A stretch of 64,000 bases of DNA. Source: Pseudomonas phage WP1. The DNA is taken from sequence record PP596839.1. The stretch is one strand, 5' to 3'. How positions within the stretch are numbered: position 1 is the stretch's first letter; each line of letters opens with the position of its first letter. Positions 12,488-60,249 of this stretch are shown here, in pieces. The notes under the pieces are model-generated. The model was given only the letters and a program-made list of their open reading frames with translations. It ran no database searches and had not been told where the DNA came from. A program made the position numbers and the translations under genes.

Positions 12488-13053
12488 TCAATGCCTCTGA
12501 CACTGCCGGTGCTTCCACGCTGTGAACTGCGACAGAAGAGACTCGCGCAACTGCGTGATGAGTCCAAAGATTTCCAGGGTAGCTCGGTTCTGAATTCGCA
12601 ATGCAGCCTTCATAATCCGGACCCGAACATCCAGGTCTTCACGAATGATTTCGGGTCCATCGGGCATACTGGACCTGACTCGCAAAATTCTCTTTTTCAT
12701 CAGTAGAGTATCTTCACTGCGGAATCGCTCTGGGCATCTGGACTGCCGTAGTCGCACTGGCCTGCGGCCTCCTTCCTGAATATCTCGCGAGCCTCTTCCG
12801 GAGAATTCGCGCCGGTAACGCTGACCAACATATCGATTCGACCGATGGTCAGCTCCTGGCCGCGCCCTGGAGCGCTCTTCAGAAGCTGCTCGCCGTACGT
12901 CCTGAGAATATCCATTTCTCGCGATGCGGCGTTCACCTGGCAATGGCTTCGGCGAGCCTGGCTGGAGACAGGAATACGCTGCTGGCTTCGGTCGCGGCGG
13001 CACTGATCTCCTGCCTCCCTGCCCAGGATGGCCTGGCTGTATCCGAATAGCAA
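12488..13053 (-). CDS. Tail/baseplate-module protein (frameshifted)
   Basis: Overlapping ORF fragments 12488-13003 and 12700-13053, immediately downstream of the tape measure gene. Confidence 0.25.
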
Positions 13054-13054
13054 G

Positions 13055-15700
13055 TCAGAACGGCTGATTTCGCGGCGCCATGACCTGGCTGGGGTTAACG
13101 CCGATCACCTGCGCAATGGCTCCGGCAATCGGCTGGGCCTGGATGCCCTGCTGGTCTCGCCGCGAACCTGATTCGGGAACTTCCGGAATCCAGAGCCTGC
13201 CCGGTCGGCCTCCTGACGCCTGAGACATCTGAGGATTTCGCCGTCGCTGCGGCCTGGCCATACGGTCGATGATGCGAATTTCCGGTCGCACAACCCTGTC
13301 GTCATATCGACGGGCTTCGCGGCGCTCATCTTCCTTCTGCCCTGGCCTGGGGTTTCCAGTCGCCCGCCATCATAGGGACGAATGTCCATGTCGCCGCCTT
13401 CCGGGGCGAACGTCTCGCTGGCGACGGTAATGGCCGCAGCCTCCTGCTGCGCTGAGCCTCTTCCATCAGCTCGACTGGAGCGCTCATTACCAAACCCGGA
13501 CATGCGCGAGTCACTGGGCCCCAGTTCTTCGGATCGAGTCCGCCATGATACCATGTCAAGGCCAACCGCAATATCACCATCTGCTCGATCTAGGTTTTCA
13601 CGCAGTAGGCGCGTTCCGCCGAGGATGTCCTGGCGAGGGTCATATACGTCAGATGATACCATACGCCCTGGCGATTTCCGGCATCGGCTGCATGAGGCCT
13701 TTCGCTGCCGGCTTCGCTGGTGGCCCTGGCGCTGAATCGGCTTTCGGTGTAATGAGTTACTGATGTCCAGCTCAGGAATGCTGTACATCTTCGAAGCATC
13801 TTTGATGATATCGCTGATGTACGATGGAACGGTGACCGGCCCTGCCTTGCGCTGCGGCGAGCATGCGACTGCAAAGAGCTGGGCACCGACTGGCTGGCCG
13901 AAGACCTGTCCGGCCGCGCCACTCTTCGACTGATCATAGATCGCCGTGCGGATAGACGCCGGTGGCCCGCGAAGTCGGCGCGATGCTTCCAATGCCGACC
14001 GCCCGACCAATTTCCCCCGCCCAGGCTGCCCAAGCCTGGCGCTCGTCAACGGCATTCGCGAACGACGATACCGCGCCACTGAACATGCTGATCGCCACCG
14101 CAAAATCACTGGTAGACTTAATCGGCCTGGTCAGCCAGCTTCTCTAGCTCTTTAATGGACTTAGTCGCCCTGTCCTGGTCTTATTGTTTCTGGCCAGGTC
14201 TTCGCTGGCCTGAGCGCCGGGAACCTTGTCCCTGTCGATGGCCCTGATTCTCCAATGCCGCGACGAGTCCCCCACGCTGCCAGGCGACCGAGCAGGGCGC
14301 CGGGGCTGAGGAGGGATAGGATATCACTGCCAACGGTCGCCTTCCCGAGCACTCCATCTTCCCAACGGGACCTGGTGTCCTTCGCGAAGCTTTCCACTTC
14401 ACTGGGAATCGCCTGGACTATACCTGTCAATGATTTCGATCGCCTGGTGAACGCAGGCGCGAGCTTTTCGCCGACTCGGTTTTCCAGGGTAATGAACGCC
14501 TGGCTGAGATTCGCCAGGGCATCGCTGAATTTCCTGGATACTGGACTCGCCCTGGACCTGGACTGGAGTTCCGCAGTCGTCATCTCGATGACTTTTCCAA
14601 TGGCCGGGCCGATCTTCGCCAGGGTGCTCAGGTAATCTCGCGAGACGCCAAGGGCATCAGCGTAGGCAGAAATTTCGTCCGGCTTCAGCCTGGCCATTTT
14701 GATGGCCAGATCGGTGATGATGTCGCTGAGCGGCCGCATGCCCTGCTGGAAGCTCCCGACATCGACGCCGGCCATACGCAGAATTCGCGCTTCCGGGCCG
14801 ACTCGCCCGATATCGCGATAAGCACGCCGGAAAATGCCTGCCAGATTTCTGGTCATCTCCGCGCCCTGCTCGCGGCTGATGGTTCCACCGGACTGGCGAA
14901 CGAATTTACCTGGTACTCTTCCAAGCGTGCCGGGGCGATGCCGATGTCCATCGCCTGGATGCGCTGCTGACTGTCCTGGTCCTGGTGTTAATGAACGCCC
15001 TGACGCCGGCCGCGACCAGGGCCACGCCGATGGCGCCTACTGCCAGCTGCGCGTTCATTCCGCGAACTGCGCTCGTCACAGAATCAACCTGCGGAACGAC
15101 CCTGCCGAGTTCGGTGGCCGCGCCGCCTGCGAATGGCGCAAATCCTGAAGGCCACTCGTCAATGCGCTGTTCACGCGCCTGACCTGGTCCTGGAGGCGCT
15201 CCAGATTGCGCTCGGCCTCTGGCAGTATCAGCCTCATACCGAAGCATGAATTCATCCAAATCACTGACCATGAATCACTCCGGCTGCTGGCGAGTCCTTC
15301 GGCGATCTTCACTCCTCGACCAATGCGCCTGGACGCCTCGGCCAGAAATGCAATGGCCAGCCTGCGATCCGACCTGTTCCCAATAGTCCGGCCGGTCGGC
15401 CGTGCCGTGGCCGGGTCGATGCCACCTGCTGAGAACAGAGCTGAAAACCAGTTCCACGTTCTTCCAGATGGCCGAGATGGCTACTGATGACTGCCGCGGT
15501 GGTCAGCGGAATGCCGGCGTCATCGTCGCCAAGCAGCACTTTCGCATAGCCCAGGATTTCCATGGTGAAAGAGCGGCGGAAGTCTGAATCTGGCTGACAG
15601 CGAATTCGACGAAACGGCGCTGGAGGTCCCAGCCATCCAATGCCGACCACGCCTCGACCTGTACACGAGCTGACGGCCATCGGGAAAGACTGATTTCAAC
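13055..15700 (-). CDS. Tail length tape measure protein (frameshifted)
   Basis: Fragments such as GVDVGSFQQGMRPLSDIITDLAIKMARLKPDEISAYADALGVSRDYLSTLAKIGPAIGKV and AQLAVGAIGVALVAAG are typical of tape-measure helical regions. The span of about 2.6 kb fits. Confidence 0.5.
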
Positions 15701-22991: not shown

Positions 22992-23070
22992 GCCCTAACC
23001 GGCCCCTACAACCGAGTCAGAGTCAAGTGAACAAAGGCCGGAAGCCCGGCACCTGGTGAGTCAGCATCGG

Positions 23071-24214
23071 TTAGATGCCGAGGTAGCGCACCACAGCCCA
23101 AGGGCGTCTGCAAAGAGCGCCGGCAGTGCCGCTGGAGAAATCCTCCACATACGACTTCGCCCGCTTTTCGACGCCAAGGGTGATGAAGCTGCCCTGAACC
23201 GGCTGGCTGAACACGCTGCCGCCATCGGTGCTGCCATCGACGGACGCGTCCACTTCTTCGACGAAGAGGACCAGGGCGTCTTCCGGCGTCTGGCCCTGCA
23301 CCTGGACGCCGGACAGCTCCGGAGCCGACACGATCCGCATCTTCGGATAGGCCTGTTCGATCCAGTCAGAAACCGAAATGCCGTAAGGCGTGGTCACCGA
23401 CAGGTAGTCCACCTTCCTGGTGGCCAGGGCCATGGTGATCTTCTCGGCCTTCGGGTCGACCTGGTCCTGGCCATGGATGCGCAGCTGGCGGACGGCCTCA
23501 CGGATATCCCCAATGATACCCGCCCAATCGGCAATGGCCCGGCCCTGGCTCGGCGAGGGCCTGGAACAGCGGCAGGCTGGGGTCATTCAGGAAACCATGG
23601 GTGCGGCTGCCCAGGCCGCCTGCCAGCCGTAAAAACCGATGGCGCTGCGGAAGATTTCCAGACCGATAGCCGCCTCCTGACGCTGGTTCCTGCGCTGTTC
23701 AGTCGAATGGCCGAAGCGCGGCCCTCTTCCAGAGTACCCACGAGCAGACCCAGCTCACCACGAACAATGGTGCGGCGCTGGAAGCTGGCGTTCCAACTGG
23801 TCAGCGGGATGCTGGTGTGGTCACCGTATTCCACCGCAATGCCGGCCGGCTCAACGATACCCTGAACGATTTCCTGGTCTTCCCAGGAGCCAACGGTGTC
23901 GATGCCGATGATCTCATCGATTTTCCGCGCGGCGGTAATGACCTTCACGAACCCAGGCAACCAGGCCTGAAGGAACTGGATGGGGGTCAGGAATCGACGG
24001 CGTGGTCACCGGGGCGGTGAAGGCCTGTCCAATGGCCGAGCCGGAACGGAATGCGCCGGCCTTCGCCAAGGCCCTGACCTGGTTAGTGGACAACGGCATG
24101 ATCGAATACCAGGCCGATGCGACCCAGGGCGGCCACGGCTTGATGGGTGACGTTCTTCAGGTCAAATGGCCGTGCCGTAACGGCCTGCGAGGCGCGAATG
24201 GGTCTTACTGGCAT
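23071..24214 (-). CDS. Major capsid protein (frameshifted)
   Basis: Strong RBS TAAGGAGG before ATG 24214. Fragments include [30 protein letters not shown], ..[18 protein letters not shown].. and ..[60 protein letters not shown]. Position follows the scaffold. Confidence 0.5.
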
Positions 24215-24230
24215 GGCTAATGACGCCTCC

Positions 24231-24825
24231 TTACTCCGTCGGCTGGACGATGGTAACGCCAGCTACCAGATTCCCTGCCGACTGGGCAGGCAGGCTGATG
24301 GCACTGACGATACGCGCTGGGGGCCTGAACCAGCCGCTCGCCATGGAGCCAGCCCTGAAACCGACCAGGGCGCCGGCCGGCAGGCCCAGGGCATTGTCGG
24401 CGGTAGGCAGGCTGTTCGGTACGCATGCCACCGGATCGCCGTAACTCAAATCCAGGGCGGTGGCGGCGCCGCTGAAGATTTCGACGACCAGGCCGGTGGC
24501 CATGTCGAAGAACTCGCCTTCGGAGCCATCGGGCAGGTCATCGCTGGGGGCCAGGGAATCGCCGGCCGACCCGTACAGAGCGTAATGCTTCGGGTGGCCG
24601 AGGATGCCGAAAAAGGCTGCGCCGCCGACCACGACTTCAGAAGCGCGCGCGGCAACGGTCTTCGGCTGGCCTTCACCGAGGGAGCCGACATCACCTGCGT
24701 AACCGAACGCGCCGACTGATGCGGCTGGGGCCGGTGGCAGTCGCGGCCGGAGTGACCAATGCCAACGCCATGATCCGACCCGGCCGCGCACGCTTCGGGC
24801 CGTCCTCGATCAGATCACCAGGAAA
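24231..24825 (-). CDS. Head protein (decoration-like or second capsid component; frameshifted)
   Basis: RBS GGGGGAG precedes ATG 24825. ..[53 protein letters not shown].. has a loose lambda gpD-like pattern. Confidence 0.35.
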
Positions 24826-24827
24826 AC

Positions 24828-25397
24828 CAGGAGTGTACTGGCAATCAGCCTGCTCCTGGACCATGGGTTACTCCCCCTTCAGGTAACTGTCCAGCTCGGC
24901 GCACTGCGGAGCAGAACTGGCCGAATCCTGGGCTTTCAACTGACGGCTGGCCGCGCCACGAGCAGCTTCGACGCCTTTCGGGTCCATGTCGAGCGCCAGA
25001 ACTTCCTGGCCCTTCTCACGCTGATCGCCAGCTTCTTCACGCCGTAAACAGCGACTTCAGCCGAGTCCATAGCTCGGTGATCGAACGCACCAACCACGGA
25101 ACTAAGACGCCTGTAGAGGCGATCTTTAGCAGCAATGTCGCGATAGAGACCACGAACTGCAGCATCCTGCGCGTTCTTCTGCCATTTCAGGAAGTTCCTC
25201 GCTGTTATCCTTGCCCTCACCACCATCGTCGCTGGCGGCCTGCGCGCCGCTGAGGATGCCCTGTTCTTCCAAGCCCTCGACGACATCTGACCTCTGTAAT
25301 GCTCTTCGTCCGCCTCTTCGGCTACCGTGCCCTCCAGTCGAGCCAGAATGGCCCTGACCTGGGAGATCAGTTCGGCGACTTCGCCTTCACCGGACAT
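24828..25397 (-). CDS. Scaffolding-like acidic helical protein (frameshifted)
   Basis: MSGEGEVAELISQVRAILARLEGTVAEEADEEHY.., acidic; located before the capsid genes. Confidence 0.4.
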
Positions 25398-25399
25398 TT

Positions 25400-25770
25400 C
25401 GGATGCGGCACCTTACTGATGCTCCGGATCGACGGCGGCCACGGCCGGATCGACAACGGACGGCGCTTCTTCATGCTCTCGTCGTCTTCCTCGAGCGCCT
25501 TCCAGAGTCGGATGCTCGGTGACTATGCTCGCTGTCGGTCGGTTCGGCCGGAGCAGCTGCGCCTTCCTGGTGCTCCGGCTCCTGCGCCTCTTCGCCCAGG
25601 AACTCCTGGACAGATGCAGAGAGCTTCGGCCACAGGGCGCGCAACTCTTCGACCGCCGAATCAGCAGCCTGTCCTGCGCGCTGGACAGGAGTCTCCTGCT
25701 GGCTTTCTGAGACCCATTTCATTACCCTCATCGGATGGCCTGAAATCAAAACTGAGATGGTCAAAGCACA
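25400..25770 (-). CDS. Acidic hypothetical head-module protein
   Basis: MRVMKWVSESQQETPVQRAGQAADSAVEELRALWPKLSASVQEFLGEEAQEPEHQEG... Confidence 0.3.
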
Positions 25771-25885
25771 GACCATCCAATTACCTGGCCCCCGGCACAC
25801 GACCCTCTTTTACCAGGGCGATATGGCTGCCGCGCATCTGTCCTGGACGACTTCATAAGGCGTTCCATTCCAGATGCCGGGCTAC

Positions 25886-26258
25886 TCAGATGTAGCGGCA
25901 ACTATAGCCTAGGGACAGATCTTCCTGCCCCTTTCCACTGATCCTGCAATTGCTGCGGGAATAGATACGGATATCGCCGCGAGCCCATGGAGCTTCGTAG
26001 TAGGCGCTGGCTATGATGATGCCTTCCACACCTGTCTTCGGGAGCCACGCCGTCGTCATCGCCGTCGAATCCCGACAGCATTTCATGCTCGTCGATCAGC
26101 GGGAGATTCTTCAGAGATTCGATATACTCAGGATCACTAACAGCAGACTCCGGACGATACACGCTGACAATCCGCATCGGATCGCCCGGAAGACCGAGCT
26201 GACCGGCAGAATACTGGAAAATGCCATAAGAGCTGACTGGACAGCCCTCAATGGTCAT
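25886..26258 (-). CDS. Hypothetical protein, first gene of the late leftward operon (frame change near 26050)
   Basis: MTIEGCPVSSYGIFQYSAGQLGLPGDPMRIVSVYRPESAVSDPEYIESLKNLPLIDEHEMLSGFDGDDDG.., immediately downstream of the AT-rich region. Confidence 0.35.
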
Positions 26259-26379
26259 ATATCCATTTTCGTCAATTTTTCTTTTCGACTTCTGCCATCG
26301 TTAATTCGAAGAGTCATGGACCATGGCTGTATTATATACGCAGGACATCCAAGGGTAAATAAGCGGAACAATAATTAGA

Positions 26380-26860
26380 TGTAGCCGCGACTGTTAATTT
26401 ACACTAGAACCTGTACTGTGATCTAATTACCGGATTTCCTCAGCCGCGAAAACTGGTAACTTGGTTTCGGAAACCTGACGGGACCTGTCTAAGCCTACTG
26501 CCGCAAGACTTTCAATCTTTAAACTAATCCAAATTACCAATTTACCAATTAAAAACTGAATTTCAATACGTATAGAGCATATCGATTCACGTTATATTAT
26601 AACGTTACTTATAATGAATTCTATTAGAACGTTATTCCTAATTTCCAATGCTATTACTGCCTGCACCATGCGGCGAAGACTGGAAATTAGGAATTTCACC
26701 ATGTTAAAGCCTGCGGCAGTAGGCTTTCCAAATAACCGCTATTTCCCAGAAACGGTAACCTGCGGCTATCCGGACCCGAATTTCTGTTCAGAATCCGGAT
26801 TTTCGCGGCATCATCAACCGAAAGCAATCAGGACTGAGACGCCGATGATGGCCAGATCAA
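26380..26860. promoter_or_regulatory. AT-rich noncoding control region with repeat element copy A and an inverted repeat
   Basis: About 35% GC. Iterons CCAAATTACCAATTTACCAATT, and an inverted repeat AGCCTACTGCCGCAAG (26488) / CCTGCGGCAGTAGGCT (26709). It separates two leftward operons. Confidence 0.5.
26468..26550 (+). repeat. Direct repeat element copy A (about 75% identical to 45988-46069)
   Basis: cggaaacctgacggg...ctttcaatctttaaactaatccaaattaccaatttaccaatt aligns with cggaaacttgccggg...ctttcaaagactaaactattccaaattcccaaattcccatt. Confidence 0.7.
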
Positions 26861-28100
26861 CTGCGGCAAACTTCAGGCTGAAGAATCCGCCGTTAATACT
26901 GGACCTGATCACATCGGTCGCGAGTCGGCGCAGTCCATGTCTTTCGGTTCATTTCACGAGCCTCGACAGCGAGTCTACCAGGGCGCGAAGATCGGCGACG
27001 AGTTCAGGCGAACAATCTTTCGCCTTCTTCCCTTTCTCGCTGCGCTGGACGGAATGGGCCATGGCGACTGCCTGTTTCGGGTCTTTCCCTGCTTCAATCT
27101 CCCCGCTGATGTTTTCAGAACGGGCTTCACTGGAAGTTCCAATGGACTAACGGCATATCGCACTCCTATCGACAACTAAATGGCTGCGATTTCCTGCACC
27201 GGCAGTTAATCGCCCGACCTGGCGGTCACTGGTCGGCCTCTGGACCTTCCCAAAGTCTAGGGTCATTCAGCCTGAATCTTTTCCCGTCCTTTTCCAGATG
27301 GGCCATGGCGAGGCATCTTTCCTGCCAAAGAGTGCATCCATTCAAACTCTTCGACTCCATTACCTGCCATTCTCTCATCACTCAACGAACTGTAAAGTTT
27401 ACTGGCCTGATCTTCTGCGATGAGTTCGATTCGGTTTTCAGAAAACTTTCCGACTTCTCTAGAGTGCAACTGTTATCCCGGAAGTTCACTGTTCCTGCGG
27501 CCTGGAGAAGTCAGAGACAACATCACGGACCGTGTAAATTTTCTGATGGACTTCCTTCTGAATGCTGGTGATAAGGGCCATGGCTGTAAGTAGTCGCGGC
27601 TTCCAGGGTGTTCCTGACGCTTTCGTCCATGAAGCTCACGGGCTGATCGACACCGGCCACCGACAGGCCATGTAGAGTCGCAGCGGTCGCGGCTTCGTCG
27701 GCCCGACTGACGAACTCCGGGGCGATCTCTGCCGCGAAACCTTCAAAGATGCGATTCCACCGCTCCTGAAGGCTTCGCAGAGTCATCTTGAACAGGACGT
27801 TCACCGATTCATCTTTCGCGAAAAACCGTTCGGCCGCACTGGGCAATGGCCTTCTCTATTTCACTTCGATAATCGGCGATAATCGGCCTGGCCATATCCT
27901 TCAACTGCTTTCGATACCAGGCTTCGATTCCAGCAGAAGGAATCATGGGCCTGCCTCTTCCGACTGGAAGAGGCGCCCGGCGTTCGCGTTTCTGGAGGCT
28001 TATGAACGCCATCACCTGCCTCCAAATGGCTTCGTCATGTCGCCGACCTGCCAGCCAACGACGGAAGGCGGGCAGATCAACTTAATGGATGGAGCCGAGT
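26860..28100 (-). CDS. Minor head morphogenesis protein (Mu F / SPP1 gp7-like by position; frameshifted)
   Basis: Fragments ..[33 protein letters not shown].. and ..[82 protein letters not shown]... Confidence 0.3.
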
Positions 28101-28399
28101 CCATCCCAGCCCGGACGGAAGCAAGACAGATATCCAGACCTGGCGTCGTTAATGCTGCTGAAGCCGGCCGTGCCGCCTGCTCGTCGAACTGCCCATCTAT
28201 TCACCTGGCTGACGACGAAGACCCGTTTCGAACCAAGGTTCGGGCCGACGAAGCAATCTACCTCATCACCATCAGCCCCCTTCGTACCTTGATGAATCCA
28301 TCATGGTGCTTCACCTGTACTCGCCAGCTCCCATCCTTCCCTGACGGATGCTACCGCGCGGATTCTCAATCAGGGTGGTGATTCCATTAACCTTGATTA

Positions 28400-30303
28400 C
28401 TGGAGTTCCGAATGGTCGCGAGGGCCGACAATGCGGCTGGACGAAAACACCGAAGGTTCAATGCCCGATACGCTCGGCCTGGACGTTCGCTTCAGGCCTG
28501 GCGCATCATCATGCTCTATATCCACGCCGTTCGGAGCCTGCGCGTCGTCCAGGGCTTCGAGTTTCGACAGTAGGTCGGACAGCAAGTTCCGAAGCTCGGC
28601 CCTGGGGTCCGGCCGCGACGGCGGTACGGCGGCCTCGGCGGCCCCTTCCTCGGCCGCTTTCGCGAGGGGCTTAGTACCGCGTGGCGCGGCCGGAACTGGG
28701 TCGCCTGCGCCTTCTACGGCGCCCGCTGGGCTTCGGCTCGTTCGGCCTCGCCTTTCGCCTTCGCCGACTGCGCACCGGCCTTTTCGAGTTCGGCCAGGTT
28801 TTCCGGAGCCATGCCCGGCTCGGTTTCGGCCTGATCGTCGGTGAGTCGACTGTAGCCGGAGCGCGGATCGTCACGCAGGCGCTCGCGGACTTCATCCGGA
28901 GAGACGACGCCTGAGCTGATGTAAATTTCATCAGTAGCGGCTTTACTGTTATTAAGCTCGGCCTGTTACCTCGCTGGCCGTGGAATCCACAGGGTTCCAG
29001 ACGATTTCCAGCTGTGCATCGACTGCTTCCGATTCTTGCCAGCAGCAAATAATGACGCTCAAGCAGCGGGTCGAATCCATGCTCTGAATCGATTCCAACT
29101 CTTCATGATAAGAAATCGTTTCATGCTCACCAGTCGCGCTGAATACGCCTGGGAGAAATGCCGAGTAGCTTCGTCGCAGGAGTCCTGGCGATGGCCGCAA
29201 CCGGCTGATTCTGGTTCATGATGACGCTGTCGAAATCGGACAGGTTCGTATCGAACTGCTGATGGTTTCATCAGTACCAATAACTTTCACGCCAATGGCT
29301 GTCTCGACTGGCGATCCAGAACGCCAGCCGGGCGCTGAAGGCATCCTCATTCGCGATGGCCTTTTCCACGTCAACATAAATGGTCCTGGTTCGCTTCGAC
29401 ATCGCCAGCAACGGCGCTTCGTTCGCAGTTCGCTCGGCAGCATACACGCGCTCGTAAATGCGCTGGGTGAGCGGGATGCCTCCGAAATCCATGTCGGCTT
29501 CAAGATACCTGGAGGCTGCGGCCCACGAACGACCACCGGATGGCTGCGATGATACTTCTTCCCGCTGATGATCCAAAAATCGGGCTCATCAAGAATGTTC
29601 GGCAGACGGGCCTGCCCTGGACCCTGCAGTGCAGCTGAGGCACTGCCCGACATCGATCGACCTGGGAAATTCCACTGTACGAGCCGGGAGCTATTCCGCC
29701 TGGGCTGAATGGCTTCTCATAGTAGTCCGGATCGTCAGACTCAACGACGAACAGAGCGATTCGAACGCCGAAGACGTTTCTGAATCGGTTCAATTCGACA
29801 AGGCTGTACCTGACGCGAAACTCCATGTCGCGCCGAGCGATTAGCGCGCCTGCTCATCAGACAGCTTCCGGCCATCCGACTGAGTTCCCATCCGTTCCGC
29901 GCTGCGTCTTCGCCTGACCATGGAGCAAGCCTGTCGACCAACCAAGTGCTGAGAAATGATGGCGCAAGCTGGTATCCGATGAATCCTGGGAGTTATACCA
30001 GTCCTCCGCCATGGTCGGTACTACATAGGGATCCTGGCCGCCAGCGGCAGCTTTCGCGGCTGGGGTGGGTCCGTCACCATACGCACTGTCCACTGCGACG
30101 GATAGGCCCGGCTCCAGAAAATCCTTCACGCTACGGATGACCGGGGCTTTCTCCGGCTCGACATTCCAGCCGCGAATCTTCCCCAGCTTAATCATAGGGT
30201 CGAGCGGATCATGCTGAGGGATTGATGCGACTTTCTCCGGCGCCGATTCAGAACAGGCAGCATTATCCTTTCTGCGCCCGAATATCCAGGAAAGTTTAAA
30301 CAT
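28400..30303 (-). CDS. Portal-like protein (frameshifted, about 630 aa)
   Basis: Size and position fit a portal. A C-terminal-like motif ..[32 protein letters not shown].. is followed by an acidic tail. N-terminus [14 protein letters not shown]... Identity is uncertain. Confidence 0.35.
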
Positions 30304-30480
30304 TTTAATTCCAATGCGGCTACTGGCCTGTGCACTTATTATAGGGGAAACATCAAACGTTCAAAAGAGATTCAAACAGATACATCACATTAACAGTCGC
30401 AACTAATCAGTCCATGAGAAAATAATTCTTTACGGGAACTTTTCGGCAGATTAGACTCTAATTATCAACCAATGGAGATT
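30304..30480. promoter_or_regulatory. AT-rich divergent promoter region
   Basis: About 33% GC. TTTACG-17nt-TAGACT on the plus strand before the ATG at 30486. On the opposite strand the gene MFKLSW starts at 30303. Confidence 0.4.
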
Positions 30481-30485
30481 AACAA

Positions 30486-30623
30486 TGAATCCTCTTCTTC
30501 CTATCGTACATATCATGCTGAAGGACGGCGAAGTTCCTGGGCCATATTCGACTGCAACAAACCTGCGAAATGGTACAGCGAATCTGAAAGACGCAGCTAT
30601 GGGTTCCTGGGTGATGGAATAGC
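30486..30623 (+). CDS. Small hypothetical protein (45 aa)
   Basis: RBS ggag 9 nt upstream of the ATG; the surrounding region is otherwise unresolved. Confidence 0.2.
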
Positions 30624-34568: not shown

Positions 34569-34617
34569 TTTACTTCCACCTGGATGAAGGCAGAATAGCT
34601 CCATCGAAACGCGAAAC
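34569..34617 (+). promoter_or_regulatory. Early promoter and conserved leader CATCGAAACGCGAAAC
   Basis: TTTACT-18nt-GAATAG, then catcgaaacgcgaaac at 34602-34617 and RBS aaaaggaa. Confidence 0.5.
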
Positions 34618-34639
34618 CTTCAAACAAAAGGAACCGACA

Positions 34640-38348: not shown

Positions 38349-38399
38349 TTTACTTCCATTCTGAATAGCGTCATAATCTCTTCATCGAAACGCGAAACA
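38349..38399 (+). promoter_or_regulatory. Early promoter and conserved leader (TTTACT-17-CATAAT; CATCGAAACGCGAAAC)
   Basis: Best-formed copy. RBS aacagaggaacgcagaa before ATG 38423. Confidence 0.55.
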
Positions 38400-38422
38400 C
38401 TCCAAAACAGAGGAACGCAGAA

Positions 38423-40057: not shown

Positions 40058-40106
40058 TTACTCGATGAGGTGGCTGAGGTATAGTCACCTCATCGAAACG
40101 CGAAAC
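40058..40106 (+). promoter_or_regulatory. Early promoter and conserved leader (TTTACT-16-TATAGT; CATCGAAACGCGAAAC)
   Basis: RBS aaaaagaggactgcgaa before ATG 40128. Confidence 0.5.
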
Positions 40107-40127
40107 GCTCAAAAAGAGGACTGCGAA

Positions 40128-44972: not shown

Positions 44973-45500
44973 CTAAATGGGGTTGGCGCGGTCTTCCTCG
45001 GTCGGTTCCGGCGTCGGGGACGGGAAATCGCCCTCTTTACCGTCCTGTACATGGCCATTGGCTTCGGCCGCAGCAGCGACGGTGGCGGTCTGAGCCTCGG
45101 CTTCCGATGCGTAGAAGCCTGCCAGTCCGCGACCGACCCTGGTTCTGCCAGGCTCGTCAACGAACGTGATTTCGGCCAGAACGTTCAGTTCCTTGATGGC
45201 AGGTAGACGGCTAGAGTCCTTGACAGTGGGATCGCGAACCACCTGGAGAAGTTCGATGAAGCGCCGTCTTTGGATTCCACAGATCGGACGTTCTGGTCGC
45301 ATTCAGCTGGCTTTGAACTGCTTGCGATAGTACGGGTTGGACTCCATCGCGAAGATGCGAGCCTGGGCCGGCCCGTCCATTGTGCTCTTCGCCCCAGGTC
45401 GCCCGGAAGACCCGCCAGGAGCTGTAGCCTTGAACGCGCAGGTCGATGTACAGGTCGAAACGCTTCTGGTTGATCGCCGCGAACTGCGGATCAGCGAATT
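44973..45500 (-). CDS. Hypothetical protein (109-aa intact C-terminal ORF plus frameshifted N-terminal extension)
   Basis: MRPERPICGIQRRRFIELLQVVRDPTVKDSSRLPAIKELNVLAEITFVDEPGRTRVGRGLAGFYASEAEAQTATVAAAAEANG..; upstream fragment ..QFAAINQKRFDLYIDLRVQGYSSWRVFRATWGEEHN... Confidence 0.3.
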
Positions 45501-45669
45501 CGTGGCGTGACTAAATCGTCGGGTCTGTAGGATCTGGCGGTCATTTGTTGCTGCGTCCCTGGAGTTCGATTCTTGGACCGTCGCGGTTGCCTGGCTGTTG
45601 ATGGGACCTAGTGCTTTGCCGCGACATCTGAGTATGGCGCGATTGTACCATGGGGCCAGGGAGCATGCT

Positions 45670-45850
45670 CGATGGGCTGCTGGTGGGTGGCCTGTAGGTA
45701 TGGGTGGGTTGGATGGTGAATGAGTGTTAGGTGGTGTTATAGGATGTTATATGGGCGGCCTGCTGGCGGGTGAGGATCGGATTGGTGGGTGGCGGATGAG
45801 CGTTTGGATAAAATGTTAAATCGAATGTTAGGAATGTGTCCAGGTGAGCG
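45670..45850. repeat. GT-rich degenerate repeat zone (GGTGGGTGG, GGATG, GTTAGG/GTTATA motifs)
   Basis: The plus strand is almost free of C over about 180 bp and contains G2-3 tracts such as GGTGGGTGG...GGGTGGGTTGGATGG. Confidence 0.6.
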
Positions 45851-45987
45851 ATTCTGCCTTGTGGCTTAATTCCTGGTTCCGCTCGTCGAGTTTTGGTCCC
45901 TGCCGCTTAGTCCGCCGTGGTGTTGCCGCTGCCCATGGTTTGGAAGGACGGAAGTTTCCGGCGACCCTGCCGCGAGTTGAGCGGAAT

Positions 45988-46069
45988 CGGAAACTTGCCG
46001 GGTAATGTACAAGCTTAGCGCCGCGAGGCTTTCAAAGACTAAACTATTCCAAATTCCCAAATTCCCATT
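45988..46069 (+). repeat. Direct repeat element copy B (iterons TTCCAAATTCCCAAATTCCCATT)
   Basis: See copy A at 26468-26550. Embedded in AT-rich noncoding DNA (45950-46450), with GCGCGGCAGTAGGCC at 46204 echoing CCTGCGGCAGTAGGCT at 26710. Confidence 0.7.
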
Positions 46070-46454
46070 AATTTTATTAATTTTAAAGATAGGTAACGTC
46101 CGTGATAGATTTTTTCTATTAGGATTGTGCAGTCGATTTTCGCTGTAGAATAGTTTTAACCCATGCTCGGAAAACCGGGAATTCGGGAAAACGGCCGCAG
46201 GCCCGCGCGGCAGTAGGCCTCCCATCTTCCCAGTCAGAATCGCAGTCCAGGAATTTGCGGCTATTTCCACACAAAAATCCACCTCAAGCCCACAATTTCT
46301 CAGCATTTCACGGAGGATCCAGTCACCATCCATGCCATACCAACGCCGAAAATCTATCAGCTTCCCATAATACGCCATCGCCACGCCACCCTAATTCCCA
46401 CATGGCTTTCAAGCCTCACCCGTTCACAAGCTAAATTAATGTTCTCCGCACCAG

Positions 46455-46485
46455 AAAAAGACCGCCCGAAGGCGGCCTAATCCAG
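46455..46485 (-). terminator. Rho-independent terminator of the leftward replication operon
   Basis: On the minus strand: GGCCGCC-UUCG-GGCGGUC then UUUUUCUGGUG. Confidence 0.5.
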
Positions 46486-46503
46486 TCCATCTGCATCAGT
46501 ACA

Positions 46504-54240: not shown

Positions 54241-55134
54241 ATGGAACAGAAGGACCAGAACGAACAGACCCAAGGCGAAGAGCTGACCAAGGAACAGGCC
54301 GCTGCCCTGCGCAAGGCCGAGAAGGCCGCTGAGCGCCAACGTAAAGAGCGCGAGCGCGCCGAGAAGGCCGAAGCCAAGGCCAAGGAAGCCGAGCAGAAGA
54401 AAGCCGAGCGCGAAGAGAAGCGCAAGGCCGAGCGCGAGAAGAAGGAAGCCGAGCGCGCCGAGAAGGCGAAGGAAAAGGCCGCCGCCAAGGAAGCCGAGCG
54501 CGCTGAAAAGGCCAAGGCGAAGGAAGCCGAGCAGGCCGAGAAGGCGAAGGCCAAAGAAGCCGAGCGCGAGCAGAAGAAGGCCGAGAAGGAAGCCGAGCGC
54601 GCCAAGAAGGCCGAAGAGAAGAAGGCCGCGCAGGAAGCCCAGAAAGTCGCTCGCGAAGAAGAGCGCAAGCGCCTGGCCGAAGAGAAGAAGGCAGAGCGCG
54701 AAGCCGAGAAGAAGCGTCGCAAGGAAGAGCAGGAAGAGCGCCGCGCGAAGGCCGAAGCCCGCCGCGAAGACCTGAAGTCCAGTGGTTCGCGCCGTCCGCG
54801 TGCCACCCACTTCATCCCGACCGGCGACGGCCACGGTACTCCGCAGGCCTTCTCGACTCGCGGCAGGGTGTCTGCTTACATCAACGAGCACTGCACCGTT
54901 GGTGAGCCGGTCGAAATCGAATCCTTCGGCGAGCAGGTGGCCCACCTGCTGTACGGCACCTCGGTTCGCAGCTACCTGAGCAGGCTGGAAATAATGGGCT
55001 GGGTCGATCTGGTTGCCATCGCTTCGAAGGAAGACGAAGCTGGCCAGGGCGATGACGAGAAGGCCGGTGACGAAGGCCAGGAGCACGACGGTGATGATCA
55101 GGGCGCCGACGGTTCCGATGGTGAAGAAGAGTAA
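54241..55134 (+). CDS. ER/K-rich single-alpha-helix (TolA-like) protein with a C-terminal globular domain and acidic tail (297 aa, intact)
   Basis: About 170 aa of AEKAKAKEAE / EREKKEAERAEKAKEKAA repeats, then ..HFIPTGDGHGTPQAFSTRGRVSAYINEHCTVGEPVEIESFGEQVAHLLYGTSVRSYLSRLEIMGWVDLVAIAS.. and DEGQEHDGDDQGADGSDGEEE. Confidence 0.6.
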   Translation: MEQKDQNEQTQGEELTKEQAAALRKAEKAAERQRKERERAEKAEAKAKEAEQKKAEREEKRKAEREKKEAERAEKAKEKAAAKEAERAEKAKAKEAEQAEKAKAKEAEREQKKAEKEAERAKKAEEKKAAQEAQKVAREEERKRLAEEKKAEREAEKKRRKEEQEERRAKAEARREDLKSSGSRRPRATHFIPTGDGHGTPQAFSTRGRVSAYINEHCTVGEPVEIESFGEQVAHLLYGTSVRSYLSRLEIMGWVDLVAIASKEDEAGQGDDEKAGDEGQEHDGDDQGADGSDGEEE

Positions 55135-56254: not shown

Positions 56255-56304
56255 TTTACTTCTTAGCCAGGTGAGAGTAGTATTCCCTCATCGAAACGCG
56301 AAAC
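56255..56304 (+). promoter_or_regulatory. Early promoter and conserved leader (TTTACT-17-TAGTAT; CATCGAAACGCGAAAC)
   Basis: RBS caaaaggaatcgacaaa before ATG 56330. Confidence 0.5.
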
Positions 56305-56329
56305 CCTTCAACCAAAAGGAATCGACAAA

Positions 56330-58614: not shown

Positions 58615-59541
58615 ATGATCTTCGATCTTGACGGATGCGTCTTCGACGATAGCCACCGTAAAAGCTTCGCACTGGAAAAGCAATGGGACGAGTACCACTC
58701 CCGCCTCGACAAGGACAAGCTCAATCCGCATGCAGTAGCACGAATCCGTAACGCCATCGACGCCGACCTGATGATTTTCTTCATCACCGGCCGAACCGAC
58801 AACAACTATTTCCAGACCAGGGCGAAAATCCATCGCGACCTGGGTATCGCCGAACATCGCGAATATGAGCTCATCATGCGGGAGTATGGAAACACCCAGC
58901 CGGCGCCGGAGTTCAAGCGCTCAGTCGCGCTAGATATTCTGAAGAAGATCGACGGCGTGACAAAGATCGTCGCGGCATTCGATGACCGACAGGATATCAT
59001 CGACGCCTACAAGGGCCTGGGAATCGATGCCTATATCCTGAACCTGGAAGGCTGCGATGCGCCGTTCTTCGCCGTCGCGGCCGATAGCGATCCCGGTAGC
59101 GCGCCCAACAACATGGCAGGCGAGCCGTTCTCGGTCGCCCCGGACTCCGCCCCTACCCTCGACGAGGCGTTTGCGCAGGCCCCTTCTCCGCTCTACGAAG
59201 AGCCGAACGAAGACGCAGCCGAAGACGCGGCCGAAGAGGCAACGGCGCCGTTCGCCATGGCATCCAGCTGGCCCGGTGACGGCGCTGCCGATCCCGATGA
59301 TTTCGTGGAGGACGTTCTCAGCAACCTGTCCGCCGCAGCAGGCATTTTCCGCGACCGCCAGGGCGCTTATGGCCGAAATGACCTGATGTATGGCAGGATC
59401 ATGGAAATCCTCTTCCCGAATGGCATGGTGGTGAAGACCGCTGATGATCATCGACTCGCCCTGTTCGTGATGCATATCGTTGGCAAACTCACTCGCCTGG
59501 CGAACAGTGGGTTTGAGGATGATGATTCGGTCTTGGACTGA
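58615..59541 (+). CDS. HAD-superfamily phosphatase (PNKP / 5'-nucleotidase-like) fused by an acidic linker to a C-terminal domain of unknown function (308 aa, intact)
   Basis: Motif I MIFDLDGCVFD, motif II FFITGRT, motif IV AAFDDRQDII. Acidic/Ala/Pro linker. C-terminal ..GRNDLMYGRIMEILFPNGMVVKTADDHRLALFVMHIVGKLTRLANSG... Confidence 0.55.
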   Translation: MIFDLDGCVFDDSHRKSFALEKQWDEYHSRLDKDKLNPHAVARIRNAIDADLMIFFITGRTDNNYFQTRAKIHRDLGIAEHREYELIMREYGNTQPAPEFKRSVALDILKKIDGVTKIVAAFDDRQDIIDAYKGLGIDAYILNLEGCDAPFFAVAADSDPGSAPNNMAGEPFSVAPDSAPTLDEAFAQAPSPLYEEPNEDAAEDAAEEATAPFAMASSWPGDGAADPDDFVEDVLSNLSAAAGIFRDRQGAYGRNDLMYGRIMEILFPNGMVVKTADDHRLALFVMHIVGKLTRLANSGFEDDDSVLD

Positions 59542-59642
59542 TCAGCTATTCAGCGTTTGTCCAATGCCACCATGTATTCCGGCCGCATCACGCCGAAAGA
59601 CGGACAGGAGGCATAAACCCTGCGCCGTTGCAGTATACTCTT

Positions 59643-59671
59643 CAGGCCGGTCGCGAAAGCAGCCGGCCTTT
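59643..59671 (+). terminator. Possible attenuator or weak terminator hairpin
   Basis: GGCCGGtcgcgaaagcagCCGGCCtttcg. Preceded by a TATACTCTTC box at 59634. Confidence 0.25.
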
Positions 59672-59691
59672 CGACATAAGAGGGAACAGGA

Positions 59692-60249
59692 CATGAGATT
59701 CGCCGTATGGGATACTGAGACCACAGGACTCCCGTTCCACCAGAGGGTAAGTCTGCGGAAGCAGCCAGAATCACTGAATTCGCCGGAGTCATCACCGATG
59801 GCGAGACGATTCTGGATGAAGTCGAGTTCACCTGCAACCCTGGGATTGTGATCGAAGAAATCATTACAAAGATCACAGGCCTGAAGAATGAAGACTTAAT
59901 CAAACACCCATCGTTCCTCGATCAACGCCAGAAAGTTCGCGATTTCTTTTCGAAGGCCGACGCAGGTATTGCCCACAACCTTCCGTTCGATAAATTCATG
60001 CTTACCTGCGATCTGGCTCGCGGAAAGCTCGGCCTGGAAGAAGTCAACTTCCCATCGCTCGATATCTGTACTGTAGAAGAGTCGGCGCCATTGTTCGGCC
60101 ACCGCATGCGGCTGCAGGCATCCTGCATGAGCATTACTGCGGACCTTATGTCCAGAAGCACCGGGCATTGGACGACGTGCGGCTGCTCCATCGAAGCCTG
60201 CAAGCACATGGGAGTGTATCGGGCGTATCAAGCAATGGAGGCCGCATAA
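59692..60249 (+). CDS. DnaQ-like 3'-5' proofreading exonuclease (3 or more frame changes)
   Basis: Exo I FAVWDTETTGLP; Exo II AHNLPFDKFML; Exo III ..HRALDDVRLL... Its TAA overlaps the DnaE start (TAATG). Confidence 0.6.

What the first reader, a model, noticed from the sequence alone, without database searches (positions are those of the whole stretch)
26380..26860. Two AT-rich noncoding regions about 19.5 kb apart share a direct repeat of about 80 bp with CCAAATT iterons
26468-26550 and 45988-46069 align at about 75% identity (cggaaacYtgNcggg ... ctttcaaNNNctaaactaNtccaaattNccaaatttNcca(a)tt). Both lie in noncoding islands of 33-38% GC. Both are followed within about 200 bp by a GCGGCAGTAGGC motif, which in copy A forms an inverted repeat with AGCCTACTGCCGC at 26488. 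Copy A separates two leftward late operons. Copy B lies downstream of the leftward replication operon and next to a GT-rich repeat zone. Tandem CCAAATT(A/C)CC iterons next to inverted repeats are typical of replication origins, partition sites (parS-like), packaging sites or regulator-binding sites. The duplication suggests two copies of one cis element, for example bidirectional origins or sites for one DNA-binding protein.
Basis: seen in the sequence. Interest (0 to 1): 0.6.

Follow-up and report, generated by a model that had tools for sequence, protein, structure and literature searches.

The report
Duplicated packaging-site (pac) module in PB1-like phage
The two AT-rich gaps are real sister copies of one DNA control module; one copy is where this phage family starts cutting and packaging its DNA, just upstream of the small-terminase gene, and the other is an undescribed look-alike in front of the head-assembly genes.

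Summary
Window 26467-26552 and 45987-46071 are 75.6% identical over 86 nt (E 2e-10), and the similarity extends over about 350 bp. The window is a noisy copy of a Pbunavirus (PB1-like Pseudomonas myophage). Nearly all of 298 relatives carry both copies.

Each region has an AT-rich core of 28-29% GC. The core is flanked by short iterons (GGNAATT here) and by inverted GC boxes (TGCCGCG ... CGCGGCA). The same layout, with different lineage-specific iterons shared by both copies, recurs in Bcepfunavirus, Wifcevirus and uncultured relatives.

Region B lies immediately upstream of terS (14-1 gp76 is the E217 TerS, PDB 7UXE). Published fixed read ends (Ab27/28/29) and the putative JG024 pac site map to one nucleotide in B's core, window 46135/46136, 66 nt from repeat B. 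Mansfield's PhageTerm terminus falls in the equivalent core.

Published TSS mapping in 14-1 shows a promoter only in copy B, so the repeat is not a shared promoter or leader.

Best reading: B is the pac region. A is an uncut, pac-like paralogue upstream of the prohead protease operon, probably bound by the same protein, most likely TerS. A replication origin is not excluded.

The parts
26467..26552 (.). Repeat copy A. In the minus-strand sense it reads: tandem iterons, then a GC-box hairpin, then the conserved CCCGTCA(A/G)GTTTCCGA box.
   Evidence: 75.6% identical to 45987-46071, E 1.8e-10. Orthologous to 14-1 13036-13114.
45987..46071 (.). Repeat copy B, with the same order of sub-elements. 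It contains the position homologous to the 14-1 P040 transcription start (about 46032, minus strand).
   Evidence: TSS 59399 in 14-1 from the supplement of 10.1101/2023.10.13.562163, mapped to the window.
26529..26550 (.). Tandem 8-nt iterons of copy A (ccAAATTACCaATTTACCaatt, which is GGTAATT/GGTAAAT on the minus strand).
   Evidence: The motif is enriched 8 vs 0.22 expected in 14-1 A+B.
46049..46069 (.). Tandem 8-nt iterons of copy B (AATTCCC x2, which is GGGAATT on the minus strand). In 14-1 they sit at -34 to -20 of promoter P040.
26553..26660 (.). AT-rich core of region A (27.8% GC).
   Evidence: No TSS is reported in the orthologous 14-1 stretch.
46072..46160 (.). AT-rich core of region B (29.2% GC). 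It is essentially invariant across 8 diverse Pbunavirus sequences.
46135..46136 (-). Inferred packaging-initiation (pac) cut. The first packaged base is 46135, reading leftward towards terS.
   Evidence: Records Ab27, Ab28 and Ab29 all start at CGATTGCACAATCC, which is 14-1 59296 and window 46135. Their start was set from reads with a single fixed end (PMC4482731). The JG024 putative pac site at 59,376 is the same nucleotide.
26491..26505 (.). GC-box arm of region A, inside repeat A (TAAGCCTACTGCCGC).
   Evidence: Perfect 15-nt inverted repeat with 26712-26726.
26712..26726 (.). Distal GC-box arm of region A (GCGGCAGTAGGCTTA).
   Evidence: The core TGCCGCG/CGCGGCA is conserved across lineages.
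46013..46025 (.). GC-box arm of region B, inside repeat B (GCTTAGCGCCGCG).
46206..46219 (.). Distal GC-box arm of region B (CGCGGCAGTAGGCC). In this lineage it matches the proximal arm at only 9 of 12 positions.
26425..26431 (.). Additional iteron in region A (AATTACC).
26640..26688 (.). Inverted iteron pair in region A (AATTTCC at 26640-26646, GGAAATT at 26682-26688). It lies within the 14-nt inverted repeat 26634-26647/26681-26694.
46177..46183 (.). Inverted iteron (GGGAATT) on the far side of the B core.
44975..45544 (-). Small terminase gene (terS, orthologue of 14-1 gp76). It is broken by indels in this window, and its 3' limit is approximate.
   Evidence: 14-1 gp76 matches E217 TerS (PDB 7UXE) at E 2.5e-125. 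The ATG is mapped to 45544.
45560..45830 (-). C/A-rich, G-poor tract (GT-rich on the plus strand) between repeat B and terS. It contains the position homologous to the proximal terS promoter P041 TSS (about 45635).
   Evidence: GC skew +0.31.. The same compositional tract is present in L078.
46459..46478 (-). Intrinsic terminator after the VapE-like helicase/primase gene (gp75 orthologue; its stop codon is at about 46504).
26324..26359 (-). Proximal sigma-70 promoter of the protease operon (TTTACC-17-TATAAT). The position homologous to the 14-1 P014 TSS is about 26324.

Best explanation
What it is. Regions A and B are paralogous copies of one DNA-level cis module. The module has three parts. 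First, an AT-rich core. Second, arrays of a short lineage-specific iteron flanking the core (GG[T/G/A]AATT in this phage; tandem 8-nt copies inside the 80-bp repeat, more copies in both orientations). Third, a pair of inverted GC boxes (..TGCCGCG.. / ..CGCGGCA..) conserved across the whole PB1-like supergroup.

Copy B. This is the packaging-initiation (pac) region. It lies directly upstream of the small-terminase gene. Terminase makes the series-initiating cut inside its AT core, at window 46135/46136. The packaged end therefore begins with the iterons and the 80-bp repeat.

Inferred mechanism. As in P1 pac or SPP1 pacL-pacC-pacR, an oligomeric DNA-binding protein, most likely the TerS ring through its N-terminal helix-turn-helix domains, binds the iterons on both sides of the core. 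It bends or wraps the DNA and presents the core to TerL for cutting. Because the tandem iterons overlap the -35 region of the distal terS promoter (P040), the same binding would also autoregulate terS.

Copy A. It lies upstream of the prohead protease-scaffold-capsid operon and is a pac-like site with the same iterons and GC boxes. There is no evidence that it is cut and no TSS in it. I infer that it is a second docking site for the same protein. Its purpose is not established. It could be a synapsis partner for pac or could couple head-gene expression to terminase.

Shown versus inferred.
- Shown: the paralogy, its conservation, the motif enrichment, the terS adjacency, the mapping of published ends to B, and the TSS positions.
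- Inferred: that TerS is the binder, and any role for A.
For: - The repeat is real and conserved.
- Motif clustering. 8 of 10 genomic GGTAATT copies lie in 14-1 A+B, against 0.22 expected from composition-preserving shuffles (0 of 20000 reach the observed count).
- The same architecture recurs with a different iteron in each lineage, shared by both copies within a genome. In BcepF1, all 11 TAACTAAG copies lie in the A- and B-equivalents. In Wifcevirus/Mansfield and loci L087-L089, ATCCGTATC arrays lie in both regions, and A vs B is 77% identical over 102 nt, E 8e-18. Other lineages are covered.
- The gene downstream of B is TerS (PDB 7UXE, E 2.5e-125). B-terS synteny holds in Pbunavirus, BcepF1 and Mansfield, and terS homologues sit at the matching position in L069, L075, L078, L081, L084, L087 and L088.
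- Independent packaging evidence converges on one nucleotide in B's core. Ab27/28/29 fixed read ends come from PMC4482731. The JG024 putative pac site at 59,376, with a pac restriction fragment and a circularly permuted genome, comes from PMC10913387. Mansfield's PhageTerm terminus lies in the equivalent AT core between inverted iteron arrays.
- ONT-cappable-seq TSS in 14-1. P040 (59399) lies inside repeat B with the iterons at -34 to -20. No TSS lies in repeat A or its core, only the proximal P014 (13257). No antisense TSS-defined RNAs are listed for 14-1.
- No Rfam family matches, and there is no convincing covariation for an RNA fold.
Against: - E217 TerS showed no appreciable DNA binding in vitro (review PMC9611059), so TerS-iteron binding is unproven.
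- Banzai PhageTerm analysis saw no significant terminus peak. JG024 PhageTerm output was considered unreliable by its authors, who call the pac site putative.
- No data show any cut or packaging role at copy A. A conserved second pac-like site has no established precedent.
- In this window's lineage the iterons on the far side of the B core are poorly conserved.
- The architecture, iterons on both sides of an AT-rich region next to a Rep-like helicase gene, equally fits an origin.
Confidence: 0.5

Rival explanations
1. A and B are replication origins of the SaPI Rep / IncQ type. An initiator helicase (gp75, VapE/Rep1-like) binds the iterons on both sides of the AT-rich unwinding element. The RepB'-type primase (gp73) then primes at the inverted GC-box hairpins on opposite strands.
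For: - gp73 matches Pfam RepB_primase at E 1e-59 and RSF1010 RepB' (3H25) at E 7e-4.
- gp75 matches VapE-like at E 3e-22 and SaPI1 Rep1 (7PDS) at E 7e-13.
- The SaPI ori consists of iterons in opposite orientations on each side of an AT-rich region immediately 3' of rep (PMC9371898). B lies immediately 3' of gp75.
- The module has dyad symmetry although the flanking genes are co-directional.
- RSF1010 uses inverted ssi sites on complementary strands (PMC8567376).
Against: - The linkage to the rep-like gene is not conserved. In Mansfield there is no gp75 homologue within 3.6 kb upstream of the B-equivalent, whereas terS always follows it.
- The mapped DNA ends in B's core are a packaging signature, not a replication one.
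- The GC boxes show no sequence similarity to ssiA. The ssiA sequence was recalled from memory and checked only against positional facts in PMC8567376.
- Published GC-skew minima lie elsewhere. This is weak evidence.
- Ori and pac functions could coexist, so this rival is weakened rather than excluded.
Confidence: 0.17
2. The shared sequence is a transcription-control module. It would be operator arrays for a phage-encoded regulator that co-ordinates two morphogenesis and packaging transcription units (terS and the head operon). On this view the pac cut in B is a coincidental neighbour.
For: - Both regions precede late or morphogenetic genes.
- Sigma-70-like promoters are predicted or annotated in both cores in LBL3 and DP1.
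- In B the tandem iterons overlap the -35 region of the mapped promoter P040.
Against: - TSS mapping finds no start in copy A's core or repeat. The -10 equivalent there is TAGAAG, and the head operon uses the separate proximal promoter P014 about 190 nt downstream.
- Six to eleven iterons in both orientations spread over 300-500 bp around an AT core is unusual for a simple activator or repressor.
- This model does not explain why the terminase cut sits at the centre of the module in two genera.
Confidence: 0.2
3. The 80-nt block acts as RNA, for example a conserved 5' leader, an antiterminator of the HK022 put type, an RNase III stem formed by the long-range inverted repeat, or a small RNA.
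For: - The block is on the sense strand of both flanking transcription units.
- In B a transcript starts inside it.
- The inverted arms in 14-1 A and B show two apparently compensatory differences.
Against: - No Rfam hit.
- RNAalifold gives -8 kcal/mol with one compensatory pair.
- The arm complementarity is not maintained in this window's lineage, at 9/12.
- Copy A has no TSS.
- The motifs occur in both orientations with dyad symmetry, which a single transcribed strand does not explain.
- No antisense RNAs are reported for 14-1.
Confidence: 0.05
4. The similarity is a neutral leftover of an old duplication or recombination and has no function.
For: Intergenic regions in phages tolerate insertions, and B's left half exists in two divergent haplotypes.
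Against: - The two-copy arrangement is kept in at least three genera, while the iteron sequence itself has been replaced in concert in both copies.
- Region A is 88-100% identical across 298 genomes.
- B's core is essentially invariant.
Confidence: 0.02

Closest known systems
Phage P1 pac site (short hexamer repeats on both sides of a central cleavage region, bound by the PacA small-terminase subunit, with IHF). This description is from my own knowledge of the P1 literature.
   Same: Arrays of a short motif flank a central region where the series-initiating cut is made, in a headful, circularly permuted packaging system.
   Different: P1 pac lies inside pacA, is regulated by Dam methylation and is single-copy. 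Here the site is intergenic, upstream of terS, has an AT-rich core and inverted GC boxes, and has a conserved second copy 19.5 kb away.
SPP1 pac (pacL-pacC-pacR). [quoted passage not shown]
   Same: The site sits at the 5' side of terS. Repeated boxes lie on both sides of the cut. It overlaps a terS promoter (P040 here), which allows autoregulation.
   Different: SPP1 has one pac. TerS-DNA binding is documented for SPP1, although disputed, and is unproven here. E217 TerS showed no appreciable binding in vitro.
T4 'twin ring pac synapsis' model, in which TerS double rings recognise two apposed pac-like sequences (mentioned in PMC9611059; further detail from my own knowledge).
   Same: It is the only known scheme in which two homologous terminase-recognition sequences kilobases apart are proposed to act together.
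   Different: The T4 sequences are short stretches inside coding genes, without iteron arrays. T4 has no unique pac cut. Nothing shows synapsis here.
SaPI replication origin next to the Rep self-loading helicase (PMC9371898).
   Same: Six to twelve short iterons lie on both sides of an AT-rich region, with opposite orientations, immediately 3' of a Rep-family helicase gene, and with element-specific iteron sequences. 14-1 gp75 is a sequence homologue of the Rep1 ATPase domain.
   Different: The conserved neighbour across genera is terS, not rep. DNA ends map to the core. There are two copies per genome. The iterons are 7-9 nt rather than 5-6 nt.
IncQ (RSF1010) oriV, with iterons, an AT-rich stretch and inverted ssiA/ssiB sites for the RepB' primase (PMC8567376).
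   Same: A RepB'-family primase is encoded (gp73). The module combines iterons, an AT-rich segment and an inverted repeat whose arms lie on complementary strands.
   Different: There is no sequence similarity to ssiA, no RepC-like initiator was found, and the arms flank the AT region instead of lying beside it.

Membership tests
pac site of headful-packaging phages (P1/SPP1 type) | Located within or next to the small-terminase gene. | tested here: met
   Copy B ends about 440 nt upstream of the terS ATG (window 45544). 14-1 gp76 is the E217 TerS (7UXE; mapping). The synteny is conserved in BcepF1 and Mansfield. Copy A does not meet this feature, because it precedes the prohead protease gene.
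pac site of headful-packaging phages (P1/SPP1 type) | A specific initiation cut gives one fixed DNA end in a subset of molecules. | tested here: met
   Published ends were mapped here to one nucleotide in B's core: the Ab27/28/29 record starts and JG024 position 59,376. Mansfield's terminus lies in the equivalent core. The underlying experiments come from the literature and one is called 'putative'. There is no such evidence for copy A.
pac site of headful-packaging phages (P1/SPP1 type) | Repeated short motifs lie on both sides of the cut. | tested here: met
   In 14-1, GGTAATT sites lie at 59040, 59180 and 59196 upstream of the cut (59296) and at 59365, 59373 and 59557 downstream of it. In this window's lineage the upstream sites are degenerate.
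pac site of headful-packaging phages (P1/SPP1 type) | The small terminase binds the repeats. | not testable with these tools
   The literature reports no appreciable in-vitro DNA binding by E217 TerS (PMC9611059). The DNA used in that work is not known to me.
pac site of headful-packaging phages (P1/SPP1 type) | Circularly permuted, terminally redundant virion DNA. | not testable with these tools
   This is reported for JG024 and Banzai. Older work claimed fixed ends. The window itself is permuted relative to 14-1.
Iteron-type replication origin (SaPI Rep ori) | Iterons on both sides of an AT-rich region, with at least two on each side in opposite orientation. | tested here: met
   The definition is taken from PMC9371898.
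Iteron-type replication origin (SaPI Rep ori) | Lies immediately 3' of the cognate rep (initiator helicase) gene. | tested here: not met
   The feature is met for B in Pbunavirus and, with one small ORF between, in BcepF1. It is not met in Mansfield, which has no gp75 homologue within 3.6 kb upstream. It is never met for A.
Iteron-type replication origin (SaPI Rep ori) | A Rep with a C-terminal winged-helix iteron-binding domain. | not tested
   Only the ATPase core of gp75 (residues 194-365) aligns with Rep1 7PDS. The C-terminal domain was not modelled.
IncQ oriV | ssiA/ssiB-type 40-nt hairpin sites recognised by the RepB' primase. | tested here: inconclusive
   A RepB'-family primase is present. 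The inverted GC-box arms can form short hairpins but have no sequence similarity to ssiA. The ssiA sequence was recalled from memory and is consistent with the positional facts in PMC8567376.
Known RNA families (Rfam 15) | A covariance-model match. | tested here: not met
   No match in A or B at E <= 1.
Sigma-70 promoter with shared 5' leader | A mapped transcription start at the same place in both copies. | tested here: not met
   In 14-1, TSS P040 at 59399 lies inside copy B. No TSS lies in copy A, only the proximal P014 at 13257.

The most novel reading that the evidence does not exclude
PB1-like myophages (Pbunavirus, Bcepfunavirus, Wifcevirus and uncultured relatives) may use a two-site packaging signal. 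On this reading the terminase, or TerS rings, must engage both the true pac site upstream of terS and a distant sequence-matched partner site in front of the prohead protease-capsid operon. This would be a sequence-specific version of the T4 'pac synapsis' idea. It could license packaging only on concatemers, or couple capsid-gene expression to terminase availability. The concerted replacement of iterons in both sites in every lineage would be the evolutionary footprint of that requirement.
Probability: 0.15. Interest if true: 0.75.

Novelty: new variant of a known kind. Interest (0 to 1): 0.55.

Why it matters
Pbunaviruses are among the most widely used therapeutic Pseudomonas phages, yet their packaging signal is still called 'putative' and their TerS has no known DNA target.

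This analysis gives the pac region a concrete anatomy:
- a cut site in an invariant AT core;
- flanking iterons;
- inverted GC boxes;
- overlap with a mapped terS promoter.

It also supplies candidate TerS-binding sequences that can be tested directly with the already purified E217 TerS.

It further shows that a second, pac-like copy in front of the head genes is conserved across several genera and evolves in concert with the first. No current packaging model predicts this.

The result is practically relevant for three tasks: designing synthetic or rebooted genomes (where to open and where not to insert), predicting transduction, and engineering packaging specificity.

Tried and rejected
1. 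Stop-codon reassignment as the reason for the lack of long ORFs. The longest stop-to-stop ORF is 365 aa. This was rejected, because the window differs from relatives by hundreds of single-base indels that break the genes.

2. An exact-pattern scan of IMG/VR with CCCGTCAAGTTTCCGA gave mostly chance hits.

3. I first favoured a promoter plus 5'-leader reading, from the LBL3/DP1 predicted promoters. I then favoured an IncQ/SaPI-like origin, from gp73 as a RepB' homologue and gp75 as a Rep1 homologue. Both were downgraded once gp76 proved to be TerS, the published ends mapped into B's core, and the TSS table showed no start in copy A.

4. I inferred that the BcepF1 B-equivalent lay between convergent genes, so could not be a promoter region. 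This was wrong. tblastn found an unannotated terS homologue on the minus strand just downstream.

5. I read the long-range inverted repeat as an RNA stem with compensatory changes, based on 14-1. It is not maintained in this window's lineage, and RNAalifold is weak.

6. RSF1010 could not be fetched from the plasmid collection. tblastn of gp73 against plasmids found only two distant hits.

7. Searching for intermediate relatives of gp75 and gp76 in IMG/VR by peptide patterns found only Pbunaviruses or very remote hits. The terminase-anchored search was what delivered the divergent lineages.

8. A structure prediction of gp76 was prepared (alignment A2) but dropped, because a solved structure exists.
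Full report
**Identity of the window.** BLASTN of 26000-27500 and 45500-46500 against phage genomes hits about 300 Pbunavirus (PB1-like Pseudomonas aeruginosa myophage) records at up to 94.5% identity. Relative to phage 14-1 (NC_011703) the window is reverse-complemented and circularly permuted.
- Region A (the finding, 26380-26860) is the 551-bp gap between gp21 and the head maturation protease gp22 (14-1 12771-13321).
- Region B (about 45545-46503) is the 963-bp gap between gp75 ('DNA primase') and gp76 (14-1 58934-59896).
- All flanking genes are on the window's minus strand.

The window itself is a poor copy. There are 82 gap openings in 7.5 kb against phage steven and 693 across the genome against 14-1. 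There is also a strand-specific excess of TTG>CTG changes. As a result almost every long gene is broken, and the longest ORF is 365 aa. I therefore used clean relatives for base-level arguments.

**The observation.** Segments 26467-26552 and 45987-46071 are 75.6% identical over 86 nt (E 1.8e-10 against the whole window). The local score is 42 against 11.1 +/- 1.2 in shuffles. The similarity continues patchily for about 350 nt. The GCGGCAGTAGGC motif and the 15-nt perfect inverted repeat 26491-26505/26712-26726 are there. The cores are 28-29% GC in a 57% GC genome. In 14-1 the same pair is 80% identical over 79 nt. Nearly all of the listed Pbunavirus records show two matching places, and region A is 88-100% conserved across the genus.

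**Anatomy.** In 14-1 the 7-mer GGTAATT occurs 10 times in 66 kb. Eight of these lie in A and B, which make up 2.3% of the genome. Composition-preserving shuffles of A and B give 0.22 copies, and none of 20000 shuffles reaches 8. The consensus is ccGGTAATT(t/a)gg. Two tandem copies 8 nt apart open the 80-bp repeat, and others lie on both sides of the AT core in both orientations. This window's B copy uses GGGAATT.

A second motif is independent of lineage. A GC box reads ..TGCCGCG.. on one side of the core and ..CGCGGCA.. on the other, often inside a short hairpin. Its consensus on the terS/protease side is AAGNCTTGCGGC.

An alignment of eight diverse Pbunavirus B regions shows an essentially invariant 95-nt AT core. 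The iterons and repeat are well conserved. The upstream flank is highly variable and comes in two haplotypes.

**Comparative evidence.** I anchored on the large terminase, portal and protease and recovered PB1-like relatives with 59-79% TerL identity. Each has a large gap upstream of the protease gene with the same layout: inverted iterons, a GC box, an AT core of about 100 nt, tandem iterons, and a GC-box hairpin. The iteron differs in each lineage:

| Lineage / locus | Iteron |
|---|---|
| L029 | TTATCSGATAA |
| L072 | TTGCGG / CCGCAAC |
| L087-L089 and Mansfield | ATCCGTATC |
| BcepF1 | TAACTAAG |
| L100 | GGAAAGTA |
| L076 | AAAAGTA |

These are shown. More distant 43-kb relatives lack the gap.

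The lineage-specific iteron is shared by the A- and B-equivalents of the same genome.
- In BcepF1 all 11 TAACTAAG copies lie in the two regions, against 0.03 expected.
- In Mansfield, A and B are 77% identical over 102 nt (E 8e-18).

So the two copies evolve in concert. This is what one expects if both must fit one fast-evolving DNA-binding protein.

**What sits next to B.** gp76 is the small terminase. It is essentially identical to E217 TerS, whose cryo-EM structure is PDB 7UXE (E 2.5e-125). The literature notes that terS lies about 58 kb from terL. terS follows the B-equivalent in BcepF1, where it is unannotated, and in Mansfield. terS homologues also sit at the matching end of seven other loci.

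Upstream of B are gp73, a RepB'-family primase (Pfam E 1e-59; RSF1010 RepB' 3H25 E 7e-4), and gp75, a VapE-like helicase whose ATPase core matches SaPI1 Rep1 (7PDS, E 7e-13). That upstream linkage is not kept in Mansfield.

**Packaging evidence.** Essoh et al. [quoted passage not shown] All three records start with CGATTGCACAATCCTAATAG, which is 14-1 59296 and window 46135.

Ipoutcha et al. 2024 showed that JG024 is circularly permuted. They reported a putative pac site at 59,376, supported by a pac restriction fragment. That position is the same nucleotide (GCGAAAAT|CGATTGCC).

In Mansfield the PhageTerm left terminus lies in the AT core of the B-equivalent, between inverted iteron arrays and 360 nt upstream of terS. 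An IMG/VR genome of the same lineage starts at the same base.

The cut lies roughly midway between the two inverted GC boxes. In this window it is 66 nt from repeat B. B is therefore, with good probability, the pac region. Its layout is closest to P1 pac and SPP1 pacL-pacC-pacR.

**Transcription.** The ONT-cappable-seq TSS table for 14-1 lists three relevant starts:

| Promoter | TSS in 14-1 | Where it lies |
|---|---|---|
| P014 | 13257 | Conserved proximal TTTACC-17-TATAAT promoter of the protease operon |
| P040 | 59399 | Inside repeat B, with the tandem iterons at -34 to -20 |
| P041 | 59807 | Proximal terS promoter |

There is no start in A's core or repeat, where the -10 equivalent reads TAGAAG. 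No antisense TSS-defined RNAs are listed for 14-1. The shared block is therefore neither a shared promoter nor a shared 5' leader. Rfam finds nothing and RNAalifold gives a weak fold with one compensatory pair. The apparent arm-arm compensation seen in 14-1 is not kept in this window's lineage. In B, a protein on the iterons would occlude P040, which would provide terS autoregulation.

**Interpretation.** The best-supported model is a DNA-level nucleoprotein site present in two copies. B is the pac region. The iterons are probably the TerS recognition elements. The universal GC boxes may serve a conserved partner such as TerL or a conserved part of TerS; this last point is inference. A is a pac-like paralogue with no evidence of cutting, and its role is open.

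Points against:
- E217 TerS did not bind DNA appreciably in vitro.
- Banzai showed no PhageTerm peak.
- The pac assignment is still 'putative' in the literature.

The origin model keeps real but lesser weight. The architecture fits SaPI/IncQ origins and Rep/RepB' homologues are encoded. However, the conserved neighbour is terS, and the only direct data are DNA ends. Published GC-skew minima lie elsewhere.

**Novelty.** The position of a putative pac site in Pbunavirus is already published. I did not find the following described in the searchable literature: the module's anatomy, the overlap with P040, the lineage-specific iterons, and above all the conserved, concertedly evolving second copy upstream of the head operon in several genera. 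I rate the finding a new variant of a known kind of element, of moderate interest.

Noticed in passing
whole window (examples 23006-30491): The window is about 6% diverged from its closest relatives in an unnatural way. There are 693 gap openings against 14-1. TTG is depleted to 0.37x and CTG enriched to 1.45x on the plus strand only. T>C in the context T-TG is the dominant change, and indels cluster next to TG/ATG. Nearly every long gene is broken, and the longest ORF is 365 aa. This looks like systematic sequencing, base-calling or processing error rather than biology.
   Followed up: partly
window 34580-34624, 38361-38405, 40069-40113, 56267-56311: There are four direct copies of a 45-nt element sharing (T/C)CATCGAAACGCGAAAC on the plus strand, in the early-gene regions (repeat finder family D4). 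It may be a shared early promoter or 5' leader. The upstream sequence of 14-1 promoter P006 ends ...AAAATAGCTCCA, which resembles the 34580 copy.
   Followed up: no
window 45560-45830 (minus-strand sense); also L078 850-1140: A C/A-rich, almost G-free tract of about 300 nt lies between the pac module and terS. It contains short direct repeats, and one relative (L042) has a 36-nt duplication there. The same compositional feature is present in a distant lineage. It forms the long 5' UTR of the P040 terS transcript and the first few hundred bases of the packaged end.
   Followed up: partly
BcepF1 NC_009015 20088-20498 (minus strand; loci L143/L144): The RefSeq annotation of BcepF1 lacks the small terminase. 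tblastn with 14-1 gp76 finds a homologue (35% identity, E 2e-23) on the minus strand, where three small plus-strand ORFs (BcepF1.059-.061) are annotated instead.
   Followed up: partly
window about 26324-26359; loci L029, L070-L100 just upstream of the protease gene: A -10-like box (G/A)TATAATAC about 50-70 nt upstream of the prohead protease start is conserved in essentially all PB1-like lineages examined. It coincides with the mapped 14-1 promoter P014.
   Followed up: partly
window 46160-46460 and the alignment: The part of region B between the gp75 terminator and the AT core exists in two strongly divergent haplotypes among Pbunaviruses (14-1/LBL3/DP1 type against window/L042/L044/L046 type). 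The adjacent AT core is essentially invariant. This suggests recombination with a breakpoint at the pac core.
   Followed up: no
window 54351-54730: A 33-nt-periodic, purine-rich tandem repeat lies on the plus strand. Translated in frame it would give a Lys/Glu/Ala-rich repeat. Several internal TSS are reported in the matching 14-1 region (P031-P033).
   Followed up: no
locus L088 position 1 (IMGVR_UViG_2974651032_000001) and Mansfield MK903282 position 1: Two independent Wifcevirus-type genome records begin at the same base inside the AT core of the B-equivalent (ATTTTAAAA(A/T)CATTTA...). This is consistent with a defined terminase cut there.
   Followed up: partly
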